Positions 9,132-35,369 of a DNA stretch of 42,461 bases are shown one piece after another. The stretch is taken from the IMG/VR virus record IMGVR_UViG_3300036798_000335, positions 1 to 42,461 of that record; one strand, 5' to 3'. The DNA is from a virus. Its lineage: Duplodnaviria; Caudoviricetes. The translations under genes and the position numbers were made by a program. Every line of letters starts with the position of its first letter. Position 1 is the stretch's first letter. The notes under the pieces were generated by a model. The model was not told the DNA's origin. It did no database searches and saw nothing but the letters and a program-made list of their open reading frames with translations.

Positions 9132-10304
9132 ATGGAAACATCAGCCCTGCTCCCAGGGGTAACGCAGGTCGACGAGACCACCTACCGGGCCAGACCCTAC
9201 GGATCCAGAGGCGAGCGTCTGTGTCGGACGTTCCGGACGGCCGAAGAGGCCAACCAGTTCACCCTTTTGACAAGGGGGCTTGTCTCTCTGGGGCTGGCGG
9301 CTGAGGCCAACCCGGTGAGAGCCCGGCTGGACGCGACCTGGCAGGAGTGGCGTGCGAGCCGGGACAAACTCAACCTCTCGTCGGCTCGCTACCGCAGCTA
9401 TGACAACACCTATAACGCTTGGATCGAGCCCACCTTTAGCCGCTGCCGGTTGGACCAGATTGATGCACAAATGGTCGACGACTGGATTGACGCAATGAAT
9501 GGCAGTCACCTCGAGGCCAGTTCGGTTCGGAATAACGTCCAGGTATTCCGTCAGTTCCTGACGTGGGCGGTCGGGCGAAAGAAGTTCAATCCGGCCGAGC
9601 TGGTCGCCATCAAAAGCCTCGAGCTGCCCGAGGTGATCGAGTCCCCGTACATCCCACTGACGGTGGAGGAGGTGGAGGCCTGGACCGCGGCCATGCGGCC
9701 CCCCGAAGCCATCGCCATCGTGCTCGGTCGCTTCACCGGGATGCGCCCCTCGGAGGTCCGAGGCCTGTGCGTGGAGCGCACCGACTTCCTACGCCGGCAG
9801 CTCCACGTCCACTGGCAGCATGACCACAATCCGACGTTGGGCCACCACCTCCGCCCGGTCAAGGTCAAGACCAAGGCGGGTACTCGCACCTTGCCCATTC
9901 AGGAGTCCCTCCTGGAGGCTCTCAGCGCCCATCTGAGCCGCTTCCCGGGTCAGTACCGCAAGACCATCCACGTCGACCGTAGAGACCGTCAGACGGCGCA
10001 GAACGTCCGCTTCATCATGGGCCCGATCACCGGGTCAACCTTCGGCTTTCGAGCGGCTGCGGTAGCCGAGCGCATCGGCCTCAACGCCCTGCGGGCTAAG
10101 CGGGTAACTCTGCACGATCTACGCCACCACTTCGCCACCGAGGCCTTGGCCCACCACGCCTCCATCCCCGAGGTGGCCGAGGCGTTGGGCGACACCATCG
10201 AGACCGTGGCCAACACCTACGCCCACGCCAAAGCCCGCCCTGGTGAGCCCTGGCAGGACCGGGTAGCCCGGGAGCAGGGTGAGGCGCGGGTAAATCATGG
10301 GTAA
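9132..10304 (+). CDS. int: Tyrosine integrase
   Basis: TGMRPSEVRGL (Arg), HDLRH (HxxR), LGD...NTYAH (Tyr) and a SAM-like middle domain. AAGGAGG RBS. Confidence 0.92.
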   Translation: METSALLPGVTQVDETTYRARPYGSRGERLCRTFRTAEEANQFTLLTRGLVSLGLAAEANPVRARLDATWQEWRASRDKLNLSSARYRSYDNTYNAWIEPTFSRCRLDQIDAQMVDDWIDAMNGSHLEASSVRNNVQVFRQFLTWAVGRKKFNPAELVAIKSLELPEVIESPYIPLTVEEVEAWTAAMRPPEAIAIVLGRFTGMRPSEVRGLCVERTDFLRRQLHVHWQHDHNPTLGHHLRPVKVKTKAGTRTLPIQESLLEALSAHLSRFPGQYRKTIHVDRRDRQTAQNVRFIMGPITGSTFGFRAAAVAERIGLNALRAKRVTLHDLRHHFATEALAHHASIPEVAEALGDTIETVANTYAHAKARPGEPWQDRVAREQGEARVNHG

Positions 10305-14349: not shown

Positions 14350-14488
14350 TGACCGACTCCTTGCCGCGCCCCCGGTGAGCCAGGAAGATGACCAGCCAGA
14401 CCACCAGCCCCACCCCGACCAGGGGTAGAGCGGTGGCAGCCGGGATGCCGGTGTTGGCCCAGAGCAGGAACAGAATGATGATGTTCAT
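14342..14488 (-). CDS. Small membrane protein (48 aa; not in the ORF track)
   Basis: AAAGGAGAATCATCAC-ATG start motif; MNIIILFLLW...LPLVGVGLVVWLVIFLA. Confidence 0.65.
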   Translation of the reverse strand: MNIIILFLLWANTGIPAATALPLVGVGLVVWLVIFLAHRGRGKESVNG

Positions 14489-14673: not shown

Positions 14674-14954
14674 TAGCGGGGGTGCTGGTCGATGTAGTCA
14701 GCCAGCCGCCTCAGCTGATCGGCCTGGCTCCCACGTCCTTCAGGTCCCGGCCCGATGATGAGATCCAGCAGGTCAGCGTGGATCACGCTGACGGGTGGGC
14801 CATCTAGGTCGCAGTTACGGGCGTGGTCGAATGAGTAGCTGTAGCAGTCGGACCAGTCGACTTCGATGGTCAGGTGGCCGCTCTCCTCACCGTTAATCCA
14901 GACCAGGGGCTGGAACAGTGAACTGATGCCGGTCTCGCGGCTCATCAGATCCAC
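14673..14954 (-). CDS. Hypothetical protein
   Basis: Operon-coupled ORF; start codon uncertain. Confidence 0.5.
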   Translation of the reverse strand: MDLMSRETGISSLFQPLVWINGEESGHLTIEVDWSDCYSYSFDHARNCDLDGPPVSVIHADLLDLIIGPGPEGRGSQADQLRRLADYIDQHPR

Positions 14955-15154
14955 CCATTCTGTTCTTCGAGGACGTCGACCAGCTCCAGGGCCAGGGCGG
15001 CCACCCGGTAGGGGCGGTCCTCGACGTCAGCGGCGTTGCGGATCTCCCCGCACAACCGCAGCACTTCAGCGGTCATGTCGAGGTGGCGCTGGACCGCTTC
15101 GCTCTCGCCATCGATGTAGGCCTGGCGGGCGGCGGATGAAACAGGTTGGTACAT
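14945..15154 (-). CDS. Hypothetical early protein
   Basis: AAAGGAGAAAACCACC-ATG start motif. Confidence 0.65.
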   Translation of the reverse strand: MYQPVSSAARQAYIDGESEAVQRHLDMTAEVLRLCGEIRNAADVEDRPYRVAALALELVDVLEEQNGWI

Positions 15155-15178
15155 GGTGGTTTTCTCCTTTGGTTGATT

Positions 15179-15235
15179 GGTGCTGAGTGCACCGGAAACC
15201 CCTTAGCAGCGTAAAGGGGAATCCGCTGATCTCAG
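15179..15235 (-). promoter_or_regulatory. Conserved intergenic hairpin H1
   Basis: CTGAG-ATCAG-CGGA-TT-CCCCTT..AAGGGG-TT-TCCG-GTGCA-CTCAG-CACC; nearly identical to H2. Confidence 0.75.
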
Positions 15236-15414
15236 TAGTGGCGTAGCTGCTCACCTCGTTGCAACCGGCGCAGCTCATAGCCTCGCAGCTTCCTACACTT
15301 CATCCACAGTCGGCGCTGCTCACCGTGGTCAGTGCAGTAGACGAATCCGTGATCGTCGATATGAGTGACCGGCTTATCGCAGGTCTCTTCCATGTCGCAG
15401 CGTAGGTCAGCCAC
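15232..15414 (-). CDS. Small Cys/His-rich hypothetical protein
   Basis: CDM..TC...HID..GFVYC..H. The stop codon lies in the base of H1. Confidence 0.55.
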   Translation of the reverse strand: MADLRCDMEETCDKPVTHIDDHGFVYCTDHGEQRRLWMKCRKLRGYELRRLQRGEQLRHY

Positions 15415-15982
15415 GCCACGCCACCCAAGCGATGGCCTGGCACTGGGCCGGGGCGATCCCGAAGTAATCGGCCACGCTGGTGTACACATCGACGATGTGC
15501 TCATAGGCGCCTTTGCGGTCCAGCACCTTCCGGGTGGTGTCATCGCCCTTGAATCCGAGGGCAGCGTCAATGGCGTGGCGGTCGATACAGACCGTGTCAG
15601 CCAAAGGGCTGACAATGCAAGCGTAGAATGAGCGGACCTTGGCTCCGCTGAGCACGTCGCCGGGATGCTCACCGGCCGCGATGCGCAGTGCCTTGCGTTT
15701 ATTGCTGAGCAGTACCGGCGCATCACCGGTCCGAAAGATCCGGTGCGCGTACTCCAGATTCAAACGCCAGGCCAACCGGGGGGACAGGGCGGCGATGACA
15801 CCAGCCGCACACTCGACGGTTACCGAGTACTGCTCAGCCATGCTCACGGCGGCGGAGTGAGCGGAAGCGTACCAGTAGGTACCTTCCTGCCAGGCCGAGT
15901 CATCAGCCGATTCCAGCAGGCTGATCAATCGGCCGACCATTTCGTCGCGGTCGAGTACGACCGTGACCTCTATGGCAGTCAT
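15407..15982 (-). CDS. Conserved phage protein with HhH-GPD/glycosylase-like pattern (DUF7178-like)
   Basis: WY..AH, AAGVIAALSP..W..N, KVRSFY, VCIDRHA and QAIAW motifs. Strong RBS motif. Confidence 0.65.
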   Translation of the reverse strand: MTAIEVTVVLDRDEMVGRLISLLESADDSAWQEGTYWYASAHSAAVSMAEQYSVTVECAAGVIAALSPRLAWRLNLEYAHRIFRTGDAPVLLSNKRKALRIAAGEHPGDVLSGAKVRSFYACIVSPLADTVCIDRHAIDAALGFKGDDTTRKVLDRKGAYEHIVDVYTSVADYFGIAPAQCQAIAWVAWRG

Positions 15983-16016
15983 GTGGTGATTCTCCTTGTG
16001 TGGTGATTGCTTAATG

Positions 16017-16073
16017 GGTGCTGAGTGCACCGGAAACCCCCTTAGCGAGTAAGGGGGAATCCGCTGACCTCAG
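16017..16073 (-). promoter_or_regulatory. Conserved intergenic hairpin H2
   Basis: Near-copy of H1 (about 57 bp). The stop of the ArdC-like gene lies in its base. Confidence 0.75.
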
Positions 16074-16987
16074 CTGTCTTCGTCAGTCTCAAACGTGGTC
16101 CCGACCACCCGGTCAACGGCTTTTTGCGCTTGGGCGGCGGCCTTGATGACCAGACCGGCGTCACCGCGGAGCACGTCCAACCAGTGGGCGATGTAGCCCG
16201 CACTGGACGGAATGACCGCGGCCTGATTGATGCCAGCCAGCCCGCAGAGCATGGCCGCACCCATTTCCGCGACCAGCTCCTCAAAGCTATAGACGGGGGA
16301 GCCGAACCCTCCGAACGTTCCCTCCGCGATCCCCTGTCGGGCGAGACGGGATGTGTGTCCGGTGGAGTGAGTGATTTCGTGATAGAGGGTTGAGTAGTAA
16401 TGCTCAGCGCTGACGAAGTCGTCACGCTGAGGCAAGCAGATGGCGTCGCGGGGCGGCGCGTAGTAAGCGCGGTCGCCACCGTGGCTGAGCGATGGGCCGG
16501 ACGTCAGGTAGTCATTGACCAGGTCAGCCGCGGCCGCGATGGCCTCCACTTCGGTCCGCTCAGCCGCCGGGGCGGGCAAGCGGGCATCGGTGGACCAGTC
16601 GCACTGGTCGACGTTGAACACATGGTAGAGACGCAGTAGCGGAATGGTGCGAACGGTTGGCTTACCGTTGACGATTTCGCCGTCTTTCTTCAGTAGCTTC
16701 CAAAAGACGATCTGAGCGGACTTCTCGCCCTTGCGGACCTGTCCGCCCCGTTCCTGGATCTGACGGTACGTCCCCCAATGGCTGGACGTGTAGCCGCGTG
16801 AAGCGCCTTCCAGCATGAGCAGGAAGACGTTCACGCCCCGGTACGGTCGCCCGGTTGATAGGGACATCGGCAGCCCGTAGCTGGATGCACTCCACGGTTG
16901 ATGCCACGGGACGGTGCCGGATTCGAGTGCTTCCAGAATCGACTTGGTGGTTTCGGCCGCGGCGTCGCGTACGGTCTTTGTAGGCAT
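16070..16987 (-). CDS. ardC: ArdC-family antirestriction protein (ssDNA-binding domain plus MPTase metallopeptidase domain)
   Basis: VPWHQPW, TGRPYRGVN, WGTYRQ..GGQVRKGEK, VFNVDQ, YYSTLYHEITHSTGH and YSFEELVAEMGA motifs. Confidence 0.9.
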   Translation of the reverse strand: MPTKTVRDAAAETTKSILEALESGTVPWHQPWSASSYGLPMSLSTGRPYRGVNVFLLMLEGASRGYTSSHWGTYRQIQERGGQVRKGEKSAQIVFWKLLKKDGEIVNGKPTVRTIPLLRLYHVFNVDQCDWSTDARLPAPAAERTEVEAIAAAADLVNDYLTSGPSLSHGGDRAYYAPPRDAICLPQRDDFVSAEHYYSTLYHEITHSTGHTSRLARQGIAEGTFGGFGSPVYSFEELVAEMGAAMLCGLAGINQAAVIPSSAGYIAHWLDVLRGDAGLVIKAAAQAQKAVDRVVGTTFETDEDS

Positions 16988-17005
16988 GGTGATTTCTCCT
17001 TTGGT

Positions 17006-17066
17006 CCTAGCTGAGAACTAGGCGGACAGGCTGAGACTGGTTCAGCCCTACCGTCTATCGCTCAGC
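17006..17066 (-). promoter_or_regulatory. Intergenic hairpin H3
   Basis: GCTGAG...CTCAGC closing stem with inner stems, and the alternative hairpin CCTAG..CTAGG before the RBS. Confidence 0.65.
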
Positions 17067-17298
17067 GACGGGTGATGTTCACTCCGTTGCACATGACCGC
17101 TTCGCCCACGTTCAACGCATCGAACATGGTCCGGAAGCGATCCATGGTGCCTTCACCCATAGCCAGCGCATCCCACTTGCAGAGCGCGGCCACGTAGGTC
17201 CACCAAGCGACGTCGGGATGAGCGGTCACCCGTTGCACCTTGCTAGGACGATCAAAGCGGTTAACCGTGATTTCGTAGCGGTTGGCGTGAATATCCAT
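17062..17298 (-). CDS. Hypothetical early protein (first gene of the early operon)
   Basis: AAAGGAGAATCACCACA-ATG start motif. Confidence 0.65.
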   Translation of the reverse strand: MDIHANRYEITVNRFDRPSKVQRVTAHPDVAWWTYVAALCKWDALAMGEGTMDRFRTMFDALNVGEAVMCNGVNITRR

Positions 17299-17322
17299 TG
17301 TGGTGATTCTCCTTTGATTGAT

Positions 17323-17387
17323 TGGTGCCCGATGGCACCACGAAAGACACCAGGTCGCGTACCTGGTGTCCAACGTGCTGATATCGG
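17323..17387 (-). promoter_or_regulatory. Conserved intergenic hairpin H4 (covariant of H1/H2)
   Basis: CCGAT-ATCAG-CACG-TTG-GACACCAGGT..ACCTGGTGTC-TTT-CGTG-GTGCC-ATCGG-GCACC. Confidence 0.75.
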
Positions 17388-17574
17388 AGAGAAAACAATC
17401 ACTTTGCTTTCTTTGCTTGGTTGGCTAGCTGTCTTTCATCTAGCACGATGGGCCGCTCGGATCGTCCGAGCCTGGGTCCACCTTGATCGCGGCATTCTCA
17501 GCCTTAGTCAGCCGGGCTATGTGTGGCGCTCGTAGCGACCTGCCTGACTGCGTTCATCCGTTGTTGCTGACCAC

Positions 17575-17603
17575 ACAATACGGTAGGGCTGACAGGTAAG
17601 CAA
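17575..17603 (-). promoter_or_regulatory. SigA-like early promoter
   Basis: Minus strand TTGCTT-N17-TATTGT pointing into the early operon. Confidence 0.55.
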
Positions 17604-17878
17604 GTCATCTAGCCAGATTTCTTTGAGAAACACACATATTGGCTGGTCACGACGTATGGTTAGCAGTGCTCACTAAGCCCCTAGTCGACCGAGCTGGGCC
17701 CACACTGCCCGCTACCTACCGGCTGGTTACCGACCAGTAACGGGTAGTTCGATCATCGAACCATCGTCCAGCGTGCGAGATCACGCGCCGCGGTCACCTC
17801 ACCCTGCTGACACCACTACCATACGGCATTCTTGAAGACTATTTCATGACATTTCTACCATCCACATCATACGTGGAG

Positions 17879-18167
17879 TGCGGATAACTGTAGTTATCGG
17901 TAATGCGATGCGTGAGGATGTCCGCAATGTCCGCAAGATCCGCAAATGTCCACTTGACCGGGGCATGTGCCGGGCGCCTCAGAGGAAATAAGTACTTAGC
18001 CAGGCGGGAAAATCGTCGCAACGGCCCGCCTGCGGAAGTTCGGGGAGAGCGAGTTGTGCCATTTTGTTCTCGATGCGGAGGTGGTTTGGGTCAAAATCGC
18101 CTCTACCAGGGAGTTTATAAAAGGGGTACCCAGGTCCGCACTCCCCAAGGGTATAGAGAGATGCGGA
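17879..18167. repeat. TCCGCA/TGCGGA repeat cluster upstream of the terminase
   Basis: Copies at 17879, 17921, 17930, 17939, 18031, 18074, 18135 and 18162. Confidence 0.6.
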
Positions 18168-18220: not shown

Positions 18221-20143
18221 GTGGCTGCCCCCATTACCCAGAAGCAGTGGAGCATCTACGAGCAGCGTCGGGCTCGAGGCTGGTCGGTGTCGGCCGCGGC
18301 TCGGGACGCTCGGATCAATCCCACTACCTGTTATCGCCGTGAAGGTCAAGCTCAGGGGCTGGCTCCCCTGGAGCGCAAGTGGATCGATCCCAGGATCAAG
18401 GCTGTTGACCCCATGGCTTATGACTCCTTGTCCAAGGAGGCCCGCCGGGCCCTGATCGACTTTGGCTACTTCCAGAAGCGCTACTTCGGCCGGGTCGCTA
18501 CCCCTTGGCAGGTGGAAGCCGCCACTCAGGTCTTGAAGCTGTTGGGGACCTCCGACAAGGAGTTCGTGGTGGTCAACGCTCCCCCCGGGGTGGGGAAGTC
18601 CACGCTCTTCACTTTGGACCTGTGCGCCTGGTTGACCTGTCGCAACCGCGACATCCGGGGTTTGATCGGATCCAAGACCCAGACCAGTGCCGTTCGCTAC
18701 GTGCAGAGATTGAAGCGCCACCTCGAGATGGCTCTGCCTTTGAAAGGTGAGGGGGTCGAGGTCGAGCTGGGCCTCGCGTTAGATGCTACGGCCACCTTGG
18801 CCGGCGACTATGGGGCGTTTAAACCGGCCTACAAGGATCAGTGGGCCGGCGAGGCCTTCGTGGTGGCCCAGGTCGGGGGTCAGATGGTGGCCGAGAAGGA
18901 GCCCACCTGGTCCGCCTACGGGATGGACTCTGGGTTCTTGGGCATGCGCTACGACATCATCATCTGGGACGACTTGGTCGACCAACGCGTCCTCAGAACG
19001 ATTGAAAGTCGCGAGAACCAGCAGCTGTGGTGGGACACCGTGGCCGAGAAGCGCCTCGAGCCCGCTGGGTTACTCGTTCTTCAGGGTCAGCGCATGGGCC
19101 CCGATGATCTGTATCGCTACGCCCTGGACAAGCGCCTCATCCCCGAGGGCGACGAGGAACCCGACGAGAAGGTGCGCAAGTACCACCACATCGTGTTCAA
19201 GGCCCACTACGACGACAAGTGCCAGAACCACCACGCCCGCCACGCCCCCTACTACCCCGAGGGGTGTTTGCTCGACCCGAGAAGGCTCCCTTGGTCGGAG
19301 CTGCGGGGCGAGATGGCCAACATGCTCAGTAACTTCGCCGTGGTCTACCAACAGGAGGACGTCGACCCTCACGCCGCCTTGATTGATATGGCCTGGATCA
19401 AAGGGGGCACCGACCCCCACACCTCCGAGGTCTACCCGGGGTGTTTGGAGCCCGACCTCGGCATCGCCCAGTTGCCCAAGGGGCTGAGCGGCGATCTGAT
19501 CTCCATCGCCACCGCTGACCCCAGCCCCACCAAGTTCTGGTCCATTCAATGGTGGGTGGTGCGGGTGGTGGACGGGGTGGCCTACCAGCGCTACCTCATG
19601 GATCACGTCCGCCAGAAGATGGACGCCCCCGGCTTCTTGGACTGGCAGGAGAAGACCCGTTCCTTCACCGGTTTGATGGAGGATTGGCAGCAGCGCAGTG
19701 TGAGCCTGGATCTACCCATCAAGTACTGGATCGTGGAAGCCAACGCCGCTCAGCGCTTCATGTTGCAGTACGACCACGTCACCCGCTGGACGGGGGCCTG
19801 GCGGGTCAGCCTCATCCCTCACCAGACCGCGGCCAACAAATCCGATCCCAACTATGGCATCGAGGTGCTCAAGTCCGCCTATCGCTATGGTCTGGTGCGG
19901 CTGCCCTACAAGGTCGGCCCTGGGTTCATGGCCTCGGCCAAGCTCATCGACGAGGTCACCCATTGGCCCATGGGGCGCTCCGATGACTGTGTGATGGCCC
20001 AGTGGTTCCTGGAGTGGCACCTGCCCCGTTTGATCCCGGTGGGTAAACCCCTGCCCCGCATGAACCGGCCCTCCTGGCTGCGCAACTCCAACACCTGGGG
20101 CTGGCGCCGGGACCAGAAGCGATTGGAGAACGCCCGTGGCTAG
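18221..20143 (+). CDS. terL: Terminase large subunit with N-terminal HTH
   Basis: Walker A NAPPGVGKST, Walker B IIIWDD, nuclease-domain ADPS and C-terminal DDCVMA motifs. Confidence 0.88.
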   Translation: MAAPITQKQWSIYEQRRARGWSVSAAARDARINPTTCYRREGQAQGLAPLERKWIDPRIKAVDPMAYDSLSKEARRALIDFGYFQKRYFGRVATPWQVEAATQVLKLLGTSDKEFVVVNAPPGVGKSTLFTLDLCAWLTCRNRDIRGLIGSKTQTSAVRYVQRLKRHLEMALPLKGEGVEVELGLALDATATLAGDYGAFKPAYKDQWAGEAFVVAQVGGQMVAEKEPTWSAYGMDSGFLGMRYDIIIWDDLVDQRVLRTIESRENQQLWWDTVAEKRLEPAGLLVLQGQRMGPDDLYRYALDKRLIPEGDEEPDEKVRKYHHIVFKAHYDDKCQNHHARHAPYYPEGCLLDPRRLPWSELRGEMANMLSNFAVVYQQEDVDPHAALIDMAWIKGGTDPHTSEVYPGCLEPDLGIAQLPKGLSGDLISIATADPSPTKFWSIQWWVVRVVDGVAYQRYLMDHVRQKMDAPGFLDWQEKTRSFTGLMEDWQQRSVSLDLPIKYWIVEANAAQRFMLQYDHVTRWTGAWRVSLIPHQTAANKSDPNYGIEVLKSAYRYGLVRLPYKVGPGFMASAKLIDEVTHWPMGRSDDCVMAQWFLEWHLPRLIPVGKPLPRMNRPSWLRNSNTWGWRRDQKRLENARG

Positions 20144-20601: not shown

Positions 20602-20931
20602 ATGTCCATCTTCTCGGGCAAGACCACCGTCACCCGCACCGACATCGAGTGTGTCGGGGTGTTCGCCAACCAATCCGAGGCCATGCTGGCCAGCTCGCGT
20701 TGGGCTGAGCACAATCCCGGGGGCCGCATCAAGGTCAAGGTGGCCACCCTGGACCAGATGCCGGCCGCGCTGGTGCCGCCGCCTCCCCCCGAGTGCATCG
20801 ACTGCGGGATCCGCATCTCCACCGGGATCCGCTGCCCCGAACATGAGAGGGCCTGGTTCAAAGCTCTGCGGGAGGCCGATCCCGATCTGATGCTCGAGAT
20901 CGAAGAGGCCAAGGCCAAGGCCGTGTCATGA
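20602..20931 (+). CDS. Hypothetical protein with CxxC..C..H
   Basis: Coupled to the portal start. The true start may be upstream (20512/20521). Confidence 0.5.
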   Translation: MSIFSGKTTVTRTDIECVGVFANQSEAMLASSRWAEHNPGGRIKVKVATLDQMPAALVPPPPPECIDCGIRISTGIRCPEHERAWFKALREADPDLMLEIEEAKAKAVS

Positions 20932-23072: not shown

Positions 23073-23557
23073 TGCCGCGCACTCGTCCGGCCGGGGGCAT
23101 GCGGGGCGGCACCCCGGGCACCGCATATCCCAACCGGACCGATCTGGCCAAGCAGCCTAATCTGCCGGCTCGAGTAGCCACCGGCCAGACCTACGGCAAA
23201 GCCCAGCAACAGCTGCAAGCGCAACGGACGGTGCCCATGGCCCCACCCCCTACGCTGGCTCCGCCGAGTGGACCACCGCCGGCCGCTCCGGGCGGGGCGC
23301 CACCGGCTCCTCCCCCTGGTCCCGGTATCCCGCCCGGGGCCTTCGGTGATCTCCACCGTCCCACCGAGCGGCCCATGGAGCCGGTCACGGCCGGCGCCGC
23401 CCTCGGGCCTGGGCCCGGCATGGAGGCGCTGGGGTTGACTGCGCCCACCAATCAGCCCACCACCCAGTTGTCCGGTCTGCTGGCTTCGATTGCGCAGAGC
23501 ACGGGCAACGCCAACCTGGGCGCACTGGCGGCTAAAGCCGCCGCCAACGGGCAGTAA
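23072..23557 (+). CDS. Pro-rich conserved virion-associated protein
   Basis: YPNRTDL, GQTYG and PTERPMEPVTAGAALGPGPG; operon coupling. Confidence 0.65.
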   Translation: MPRTRPAGGMRGGTPGTAYPNRTDLAKQPNLPARVATGQTYGKAQQQLQAQRTVPMAPPPTLAPPSGPPPAAPGGAPPAPPPGPGIPPGAFGDLHRPTERPMEPVTAGAALGPGPGMEALGLTAPTNQPTTQLSGLLASIAQSTGNANLGALAAKAAANGQ

Positions 23558-34382: not shown

Positions 34383-35369
34383 ATGGCCCTGACCGTTCAG
34401 GCGTCCACCGACTTCGCTCAGAAGGCTTACGAGCTGATGGCGTTCTACGCCCTCCGCCCGGAGCTGTACTTCGACGCGGTGGCCGATGTGCGCCCCACCA
34501 ATCAATCCCAGCCCGGCTCGTCGGTGCAGTTCACCATCACCGCCGATCTCGTGGAGGCCATCACGCCCCTGAGCGAGACGGTCGACGTGACCCCGCAGGT
34601 GCTGTCCGACTCCACCGTGCTGGTCACCCTGCTCGAGTACGGCAACGCCGTCACCACCACCGCCCTGGCTCGAGGGACATCCTTCGTCGACCTCGACCCG
34701 GTGGTGGCCAACATCGTCGGCTTCAACGCCGGCAAGACCGTCGACACCCTGGCCCGCAACGTGCTGACGGCCGGCACCAACGTGGCCTACGCCGTCGGTG
34801 ACGGCTCCAATGTGGCCACCAGCCGGATCACCGTCGGGGTGAAGAACACTCTGGTGGCCGCCGATGTCCGGTCCGCTCGGGCCGCTCTGGTGCGCAACAA
34901 CGTGCCCAACATCGGTGGGTACTACATGGGCTTCATCCACCCGGATTCGGCCTTCGACCTGCGCGGCCAGACTGGCACCGCCACCTGGAACGAGCCCCAC
35001 GCCTACTCCGCTCCTGACCAGATCTGGTCCGGGGAGATCGGGTCGTTCAGCGGGGTCCGTTTCATCGAGACCCCTCGAGGCCAGATCTTTGCTGACGCTG
35101 GTGGTAGCCCGCCGGGTACCGCCTCCAATGTCGACGTCTACGCCACGCTGTTCATGGGCCGACAGGCTCTGGCCAAGGCCTACAGCTACGTGGACGGCAA
35201 CGGCGAGCGCCCCCTGGTGGTCCCCGGGCCCGTGACCGACGCCCTGCGCCGGTTCGTGCCCATCGGCTGGTACCAGCTGGTCGGCTACGGCCTGTTCCGT
35301 CAGCTCTCGGTCCTGCGGATCGAGGGCGCTTCTACGCTCGGCCTGAACACGGTCGCCGGCTCGCACTGA
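34383..35369 (+). CDS. Major capsid protein (N4-gp56 family-like)
   Basis: AYELMAFYALRPELYFD, LLEYGN, FIHPD..DLR, GEIG..SGVRFIETP, GRQALAKA and D.LRRF.PIGWY motifs. Confidence 0.88.
   Translation: MALTVQASTDFAQKAYELMAFYALRPELYFDAVADVRPTNQSQPGSSVQFTITADLVEAITPLSETVDVTPQVLSDSTVLVTLLEYGNAVTTTALARGTSFVDLDPVVANIVGFNAGKTVDTLARNVLTAGTNVAYAVGDGSNVATSRITVGVKNTLVAADVRSARAALVRNNVPNIGGYYMGFIHPDSAFDLRGQTGTATWNEPHAYSAPDQIWSGEIGSFSGVRFIETPRGQIFADAGGSPPGTASNVDVYATLFMGRQALAKAYSYVDGNGERPLVVPGPVTDALRRFVPIGWYQLVGYGLFRQLSVLRIEGASTLGLNTVAGSH

What the first reader, a model, noticed from the sequence alone, without database searches (positions are those of the whole stretch)
15179..17387. Four covarying, switchable hairpins punctuate the early operon
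Seen: H1 (15179-15235), H2 (16017-16073), H3 (17006-17066) and H4 (17323-17387) each sit just upstream of an RBS. In H1-H3 the upstream gene's TGA lies inside the CTGAG base. H1, H2 and H4 keep the same internal loop (RTCAG/GTGCM) and U-rich inner loop while the stems change compensatorily (CTGAG/CTCAG vs CCGAT/ATCGG; CGGA/TCCG vs CACG/CGTG). In all four, the 3' arm can instead form a short hairpin with downstream bases (GGTGC..GCACC; CCTAG..CTAGG). Known: T7 early mRNA is cut at RNase III hairpins between genes. Inference: these are processing sites that leave a 5'-protective hairpin on each monocistronic mRNA. Alternatives are a new pseudoknot/ribozyme motif or cassette recombination sites.
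Basis: partly seen in the sequence, partly recalled or inferred. Interest (0 to 1): 0.75.

Follow-up and report, generated by a model that had tools for sequence, protein, structure and literature searches.

The report
Cut-and-recap hairpins between phage genes
Four conserved RNA hairpins separate the early genes of an uncultured soil phage; the host enzyme RNase III likely cuts each one at the spot where the freed end is predicted to refold into a small protective hairpin, which would turn one long message into separately stabilised pieces, much as phage T7 does.

Summary
The four hairpins are real (z -3.4 to -6.5) and have no Rfam match. Three close relatives give 9 more copies, and 12 of 19 pairs covary. 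Two unrelated phages carry structural analogues in which the long stem and the alternative 3' hairpin change together. Corrections: the U-rich loop is window-specific, H3 is a separately built analogue, and uncut RNA does not switch (alternative fold ≤1.4%). In 37 elements, the E. coli RNase III base-pair preferences peak exactly where the alternative hairpin starts. The G·G mismatch there also occurs in 18 of 26 pre-16S rRNA processing stems. Hammerhead-type ribozymes fill the same slot in one analogue phage and in Streptomyces phage Andris. Best reading: RNase III nicks the 3' arm, and the freed 5' end refolds into a cap. Against it: the pair at the cut is C-G in 20 of 24, which inhibits cleavage in vitro, and no RNA ends were available. 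It is a new variant of T7-type processing signals, and the scan has noted this kind on other phages before.

The parts
15179..15235 (-). H1: long hairpin 15183-15235; alternative 3' hairpin 15179-15193; predicted nick between 15194 and 15193
16017..16073 (-). H2: long hairpin 16021-16073; alternative hairpin 16017-16031; predicted nick between 16032 and 16031; 85% identical to H1
17006..17066 (-). H3: analogue of different sequence; long hairpin 17010-17066; alternative hairpin 17006-17022; its best RNase III register coincides with the alternative hairpin's first base
   Evidence: not hit by the covariance model
17323..17387 (-). H4: first element after the leader; long hairpin 17329-17387; alternative hairpin 17323-17340 (core 17324-17339); predicted nick between 17340 and 17339
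15164..15169 (-). RBS AAGGAG after H1 (others begin at 15997, 17001 and 17314 on the minus strand)
17062..17298 (-). 78-aa orphan gene between H4 and H3; stop in the base of H3
16070..16987 (-). ArdC-type anti-restriction protein (ArdcN + MPTase-PolyVal); stop in the base of H2
15407..15982 (-). DUF7178 protein after H2
15232..15414 (-). about 60-aa orphan gene, start uncertain; stop in the base of H1
14945..15154 (-). 69-aa orphan gene after H1
17575..17603 (-). likely early promoter, TTGCTT-17 nt-TATTGT, read by eye; the same hexamers with a diverged spacer stand in relative G003; the consensus scan does not call it
17515..17544 (-). 30-nt leader block identical in G003, function unknown

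Best explanation
The four hairpins lie between early genes on the coding strand and are likely host RNase III processing signals with a built-in recap: the enzyme would nick the 3' arm just 5' of GGUGC (15193, 16031, 17339; CCUAG at 17022 in H3), and the freed end is predicted to refold into the short hairpin with no unpaired 5' base. The base half of each stem carries the recognition pairs (C-G, G·G, A-U, C-G, then A-U and G-C further out). The loop-side half is a poor site (U·U pairs here, G-C/C-G pairs in relatives), which would favour a single nick. The upstream piece would keep the upper hairpin at its 3' end. The downstream piece would start with a blunt hairpin 4-19 nt before its RBS, which is likely to block 5'-end-dependent decay. 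The upstream stop codon sits in the base stem, so a terminating ribosome would help strip the two pieces apart and could set when cutting happens (inferred only). Shown: structure, covariation, register, energetics, gene context. Inferred: the enzyme, the cut, the stabilisation, the ribosome coupling.
For: Covariation: 92.5% of cells paired and 12 of 19 pairs changed on both sides in 12 copies, 0 of 500 shuffles. Three-way changes keep both folds (A-U-A 14, C-G-C 6, U-A-U 3, G-U-A 1 at position 3 of 24 elements; pairing at that position is by selection, the variety is not). 61 G·U against 12 isolated A·C point to the coding-strand RNA. With the pair counts of Altuvia 2018 (PMC6212723 Table S4), anchored on the short hairpin's first base in 37 elements, the proximal-box score is -0.26 at offset 0 and -0.88 to -1.91 at the 11 other offsets; structure-keeping shuffles give p = 0.0005 for all 37 and 0.0045 for the window's 4 (base half-site). 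Base half beats loop half in 12 of 12 close-family copies, while phage G002 carries the canonical box in its loop half at the same register (W-W' pair next to the cut in 10 of 11; p = 0.0005). Pair/purine mismatch/pair stands one base in from the hairpin start in 22 of 37, two bases in for 2 more, and 0-1 times at other offsets; G·G followed by U-A stands at the matching place in 18 of 26 pre-16S stems. After a nick the duplex gains only 0-5 kcal/mol at standard state over the separated, refolded pieces. Hammerhead cores stand in the same slot in G002 and in phage Andris (8 hits, 5 at or above the Rfam cut-off). T7 early RNA is cut by RNase III at single strands, leaving protective 3' hairpins (PMC8708148, PMC1540722). 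A hairpin at a cleaved 5' end protects against RNase J1 in B. subtilis cggR (PMC11780869).
Against: The pair next to the predicted cut is C-G in 20 of 24 elements. In vitro, G-C/C-G there suppresses cleavage by E. coli and Aquifex RNase III (PMC1540722, PMC3074117), and the rRNA stems have A-U there in 25 of 26; in vivo E. coli sites do have C-G there in 15 of about 85. Proximal position 2 is C-G in 6 of 24. A blind search picked the right register in only 12 of 43 elements, two of them with a mis-picked short hairpin (about 2 expected); in the window H1 and H3 ranked first, H2 second and H4 eighth of 22. Absolute scores are near zero and the paper's own 24-position threshold was not applied. 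13 of 37 elements lack the mismatch signature, among them H3 and four G001 elements that fit E. coli rules poorly. Copies within a genome are not independent, and I chose the early-operon elements by eye. The host is unknown, and the rRNA register was set by motif, not by a mapped cut. The close ArdC relative G005 manages without these elements.
Confidence: 0.68

Rival explanations
1. The same cut-and-recap logic, but another host or phage nuclease recognises the irregular stem.
For: C-G at the cut is unfavourable for characterised RNase III enzymes. Four G001 elements have an ACCAG/GAGCC-type loop and G-C-rich boxes.
Against: The register matches RNase III preferences in three phage groups, using either half-site, and resembles pre-16S stems. 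No RNase III domain is found in the window or five related records; no other nuclease was sought in a targeted way.
Confidence: 0.1
2. No cutting: RNase III binds without cleaving (a decoy), or a ribosome ending at the stop codon opens the base stem so the short hairpin forms briefly and tunes translation or read-through.
For: G-C/C-G at proximal position 4 uncouples binding from cleavage (PMC1540722). 29 of 34 upstream stops lie 4-13 nt before the predicted cut register. In some G001 elements the two folds are equal in energy.
Against: Neither fold covers the RBS (spacer 4-19 nt in the window). H4 and the first elements of relatives have no upstream gene yet keep both folds. A hairpin that starts exactly at the scissile bond has no purpose without a cut, and ribozymes fill the same slot elsewhere.
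Confidence: 0.1
3. The elements are mainly DNA recombination sites for gene cassettes (attC-like, or homology patches).
For: Gene content changes between hairpins: of 11 window early genes G003 shares only ArdC and the HTH gene, and L261/L264 share ArdC and DUF7178. After ArdC, G003 has another gene. H1 and H2 are 85% alike, while H2 is 53-54% like the hairpins after ArdC in relatives, which suggests conversion between copies.
Against: The integrase scores 29 bits on the integron-integrase model (cut-off 265). The attC core motif (recalled) is absent from H1-H3 and occurs once near H4. There is no invariant crossover core, and recombination does not explain the second fold or the register. Shuffling at these repeats is likely a by-product.
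Confidence: 0.06
4. A new self-cleaving ribozyme or pseudoknot, in which the base strand pairs into the loop of the short hairpin.
For: The loop of the short hairpin is the base-stem strand, so a pseudoknot can be drawn. Hammerheads do this job in other phages.
Against: Across 24 elements no single-stranded catalytic core is conserved and every stem position varies. There is no Rfam match and no complete hammerhead core in H1-H4. The pseudoknot would need a zero-length loop (inference).
Confidence: 0.03
5. Tail-less intrinsic terminators or pause hairpins that grade expression along the operon.
For: Strong hairpins directly after stop codons; tail-less terminators are known in actinobacteria (recalled).
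Against: The terminator scan finds none here. H4 precedes the first gene. The conserved mismatches weaken the stem. No internal promoters are seen in the window.
Confidence: 0.03

Closest known systems
RNase III processing signals of phage T7 early mRNA (R1.1 and its minimal form)
   Same: Intercistronic irregular hairpins of about two helical turns; predicted single-strand nick; 3' hairpin left on the upstream piece; proximal-box preferences (PMC8708148, PMC1540722, PMC3867540; passages read).
   Different: A second, covarying hairpin starts at the predicted cut; C-G and G·G stand next to the cut; the stop codon is built into the base stem; the phage is temperate and high-GC. Cleavage is not shown here. 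I did not fold T7's own sites to see whether they refold likewise.
Pre-16S rRNA processing stem (RNase III substrate; B. subtilis sites in PMC4838370, passages only, figure not seen)
   Same: G·G mismatch followed by an A-U/U-A pair in 18 of 26 stems from the phylum of a MAG titled Mycobacterium sp..
   Different: The rRNA stems have A-U next to the presumed cut (25 of 26) and are more fully paired; the phage elements have C-G and a 2x2 loop.
Clustered intergenic hammerhead ribozymes of phages and prophages (Perreault 2011, PMC3088659, passages)
   Same: They flank single genes, including an anti-restriction gene (ardA), and are proposed to cut long phage transcripts; here they fill the same slot in G002 and in phage Andris.
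   Different: Self-cleaving with a conserved catalytic core; H1-H4 have no such core.
Hairpin-stabilised processed 5' ends (B. subtilis cggR-gapA, PMC11780869, passages) and SP82 early-mRNA RNase III sites (only citations seen)
   Same: A hairpin at the cleaved 5' end keeps the downstream message from RNase J1.
   Different: At cggR the hairpin exists before the RNase Y cut; here it is hidden inside the substrate stem until release. For SP82 the review ties stability to the RBS.
Integron attC sites and T4-type promoter-stem-loop cassettes (both recalled, not searched)
   Same: Hairpin at the stop codon, variable top, gene content varies between repeats.
   Different: No integron integrase, no conserved attC core, no promoter within H1, H2 or H4.

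Membership tests
RNase III processing signal (T7 type) | Duplex of about 22 positions, at least 11 on one side of the cut | tested here: met
   Ladders: 11 or more positions below the predicted cut and 11-16 above, with mismatches.
RNase III processing signal (T7 type) | A-U/U-A at proximal position 2 and C-G at position 1 | tested here: met
   H1, H2, H4: A-U and C-G; H3: A-U and U-A. Over 24 elements 17 A-U/U-A and 20 C-G.
RNase III processing signal (T7 type) | A-U/U-A (not G-C/C-G) at proximal position 4, next to the scissile bond | tested here: not met
   C-G in H1, H2, H4 and in 20 of 24. It is an in vitro preference; 15 of about 85 in vivo E. coli sites have C-G there.
RNase III processing signal (T7 type) | Position-specific pair profile like in vivo RNase III sites | tested here: met
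   Peak at offset 0 in 37 elements, p = 0.0005 against structure-keeping shuffles; low absolute score; blind pick right in 12 of 43.
RNase III processing signal (T7 type) | Intercistronic position in a polycistronic early transcript | tested here: met
   Between co-oriented genes after a likely promoter; the transcript itself is inferred.
RNase III processing signal (T7 type) | rnc-dependent cleavage giving a 5'-phosphate end | not testable with these tools
   Needs end mapping or an in vitro assay.
Known self-cleaving ribozyme classes | Conserved catalytic core, Rfam match | tested here: not met
Integron attC cassette array | Integron integrase and conserved R-box cores | tested here: not met
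   29 bits against cut-off 265; core motif (recalled) absent in H1-H3.
Intrinsic terminator | GC hairpin followed by a U tract | tested here: not met
   no site at H1-H4.
Single-strand DNA promoter hairpin (Frpo type, recalled) | -35/-10 hexamers rebuilt in the stem | tested here: not met
   One search found no promoter-like site; none seen by eye in H1, H2, H4.

The most novel reading that the evidence does not exclude
A widespread, independently re-evolved phage 'cut-and-recap' module that mimics the host's pre-rRNA processing stem. The same five bases are first the RNase III recognition box and then the 5' cap stem. It is interchangeable with hammerhead ribozymes, is gated by the ribosome that ends at the stop codon in its base, and doubles as the junction at which anti-defence gene modules are shuffled.
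Probability: 0.27. Interest if true: 0.72.

Novelty: new variant of a known kind. Interest (0 to 1): 0.52.

Why it matters
RNase III cutting of phage early RNA is known from a few model phages, and what it is for remains unclear (T7 grows without the enzyme; PMC6938266). These elements give a concrete answer that can be tested to the base: the cut releases a pre-encoded cap, so each early or anti-defence gene block gets a message protected at both ends. They also offer natural substrates for defining actinobacterial RNase III rules (C-G and G·G next to the cut), and a compact insulator part for high-GC hosts. If cleavage fails, conserved double folding at an RNase III register would itself need a new explanation.

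Tried and rejected
Rfam: 0 hits at cut-off in the window and only weak hits (E ≥ 0.64) outside the hairpins. A first viral pattern scan gave 84 loci, none of which passed the structural descriptor. In the second scan 4 of 52 loci were G003, 3 gave real elements (L209, L223, L243), and the rest were not used. In the metagenome scan 4 of 9 loci were G003, 2 were new (L261, L264, probably one genome), and 3 were unrelated. The covariance model found only G004 as an independent hit (E = 1.7e-5), missed H3 and the G001/G002 elements, and gave 0 hits in 100 loci of distant terminase or ArdC relatives; so G001/G002 are analogues, not proven homologues. No cultured relative of the region was found; four cultured-phage early regions showed no clear copy by eye. 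Host: one GTDB hit at 46% terminase identity in a MAG titled Mycobacterium sp., not enough to name a host. No RNA holder listed. The source run holds the stretch unchanged, and two low-depth short contigs share only H1+RBS or only H3; this is a weak, non-independent hint. Six of 43 elements were dropped before the anchored test (four with a short hairpin weaker than -4 kcal/mol, two from G005). 3 of 30 rRNA loci lacked flanks and 1 of 27 lacked the motif. The leader block occurs only in G003, and its 3' part does not fold better than shuffles (z = -1.2). Ten paper searches listed no paper describing a refolding 5' cap inside a phage RNase III site; the library lacks most older subscription papers on T7, T3, SP82 and SPO1, so this is weak. 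R-scape was not available.

Full report
Context. The window is a 42-kb, about 65% GC phage record (G000, 93% complete) with an integrase at 9132, terminase at 18221, portal at 20928 and capsid at 34383. A leftward operon starts near 17600. Its order is: likely promoter and leader, H4, 78-aa gene, H3, ArdC-type anti-restriction gene, H2, DUF7178 and a 60-aa gene, H1, 69-aa gene and further small genes. The host is unknown; DUF7178 relatives are mostly in actinophages.

Observation. The four hairpins are as described and far more stable than shuffles. H1, H2 and H4 share one ladder: 5-bp base stem, 2x2 loop, CA/UG, G·G, 4-bp stem, UU/UU, variable top. In all four the 3' arm can refold with downstream bases into a short hairpin whose loop is the base-stem strand. 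The uncut RNA prefers the long fold by 3-6 kcal/mol. Rfam has no match.

Relatives. G003 (terminase 82%, ArdC 66%) has six such elements before mostly different genes. L261 and L264 add three, and G004 one (E = 1.7e-5 with a model built from 12 copies). In these 12 copies 12 of 19 pairs change on both sides and no shuffle of 500 reaches the observed values; related sequences can beat such shuffles, but slid controls drop to about 40% paired. The UU/UU loop is replaced by U-G/C-G pairs in relatives. Two unrelated phages, G001 (15 candidates) and G002 (12), show the same two-fold design with other sequences. There the base shared by both folds changes together with both partners. The model does not find these, so they count as analogues.

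RNase III test. I took the pair counts of 85 in vivo E. coli double-cleavage sites (PMC6212723, Table S4), symmetrised them and scored every register. Blind, the best register equalled the start of the short hairpin in 12 of 43 elements against about 2 expected; two of the 12 had a mis-picked short hairpin. Anchored on the short hairpin's first base in 37 elements, the score peaks at offset 0 for all elements together and in G001 and G002. In the close family the base half-site peaks there sharply, while the two-sided score is about as high at offset +5. Shuffles that keep the pairing pattern give p = 0.0005 (the floor of 2000 shuffles) overall and 0.0045 for the window. In the close family the loop-side half scores worse than its null (p = 0.0005), as expected if only one strand is to be cut; G002 instead has a canonical box in the loop-side half at the same register. 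These p-values overstate certainty because copies within a genome are related and I picked the elements.

Host-stem check. I tested it on 27 of 30 16S loci from the phylum of G006. 26 had the motif; 18 of these have G·G followed by U-A, all 26 have U-A at that second position, and 25 have A-U before the mismatch. The phage elements have C-G before the mismatch in 20 of 24. That is the main weakness, since G-C/C-G there suppresses cleavage in vitro (PMC1540722 discussion, PMC3074117 passages). The register in the rRNA stems was set by motif; PMC4838370 (passages) places RNase III cuts in the B. subtilis 16S stalk, but I did not see the exact base.

Functional equivalents. In G002 a hammerhead core stands in the same slot before an RBS (Rfam E = 1.6e-4, below cut-off); cleavage would leave a CGCGG/CCGCG hairpin at the new 5' end. 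A second core is at 16279 (pattern only). Streptomyces phage Andris, which shares DUF7178, has eight type II hammerhead hits in its early region, five at or above cut-off. Clustered phage hammerheads are known and were shown to cleave (PMC3088659). This shows that the slot is a processing slot in other phages; it does not show that H1-H4 are cut.

Mechanism. RNase III likely binds the base half-site and nicks the 3' arm 5' of GGUGC. The remaining 7-8 interrupted pairs are worth only 0-5 kcal/mol more than the refolded state at standard state, so at cellular concentration the pieces would part and the short hairpin would form with no free 5' base. The upstream piece keeps the upper hairpin, as for T7. 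A hairpin at a processed 5' end protects against RNase J1 in B. subtilis. 29 of 34 upstream stop codons lie 4-13 nt before the cut register, so a terminating ribosome would melt the base stem. The A-U and G-C pairs there are not just the TGA, since first elements with no upstream gene keep them.

Cassette shuffling. Gene content differs between hairpins in relatives, and paralogous hairpins are more alike than those at the same gene junction in relatives. This fits homologous exchange between repeats. An integron-type system is not supported.

Known and new. It works like T7-type RNase III signals. Membership is likely but not established: one in vitro preference is not met and cleavage is untested. 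The new feature is the hidden cap hairpin that starts at the scissile bond. Ten searches did not list it in print, but older papers are missing from the library and T7's own sites were not tested. Papers were seen as passages (PMC3867540, PMC3074117, PMC11780869, PMC4838370, PMC7509114, PMC6765202, PMC3088659, PMC8708148, PMC6938266, PMC10914365), passages plus discussion and legends (PMC1540722), or passages plus the first part of the supplement (PMC6212723). The scan has noted this kind of element on many other phages; no look-alike of this DNA was on record. Those notes are not independent support.

Verdict. A real, conserved RNA element; best read as an RNase III cut-and-recap signal (0.68). 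New variant of a known kind; interest 0.52.

Noticed in passing
window 17515-17603 (minus strand); L122 1550-1650: Likely early promoter (TTGCTT-17-TATTGT) followed by a 30-nt leader block identical in G003 and found in no other viral contig; could be a protein-binding or antitermination site.
   Followed up: partly
window 17042-17054 and 17580-17592: The 5' arm of H3 shares a 13-mer with the opposite strand of the promoter spacer, and its 3' arm resembles the 5' arm of G003-type hairpins; H3 looks rebuilt from borrowed pieces yet lands on the same register.
   Followed up: partly
L310 1627-6967 (Streptomyces phage Andris, OP751147.1): Eight type II hammerhead hits between early genes, five at or above the Rfam cut-off, not annotated in the stretch shown.
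   Followed up: partly
L269 5700-5775 and about 16270-16340 (G002): Two hammerhead cores directly before an RBS, in a genome whose other early genes use two-fold hairpins.
   Followed up: partly
L121 1100-1170 and 2010-2060 (G005): A close ArdC relative (69%) has promoter-like TTGACC/TTGCCT...TACATT elements between early genes instead, one inside a near-perfect hairpin.
   Followed up: no
L223 (G001 elements before RBS at 23304, 18764, 16527, 16063): A second type with an ACCAG/GAGCC-like 4x4 loop in which the two folds are equal in energy and RNase III rules fit poorly.
   Followed up: partly
L311 1100-7590 and 10790-10820 (Arthrobacter phage AWGoat): A repeated GGGGTCGG...CCGAYCCCC hairpin stands just before the RBS of many early genes, without the long overlapping stem.
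   Followed up: no
window 14370-14420 (minus strand): A further strong hairpin (-38 kcal/mol) inside the 48-aa gene, 29 nt before the next RBS; not of the H1-H4 type.
   Followed up: no
window 17860-17900; L122 1135-1170: A 35-nt block (CCGATAACTA...CACGTATGA) is conserved with G003 in the gap before the terminase gene; possibly a packaging or operator site.
   Followed up: no
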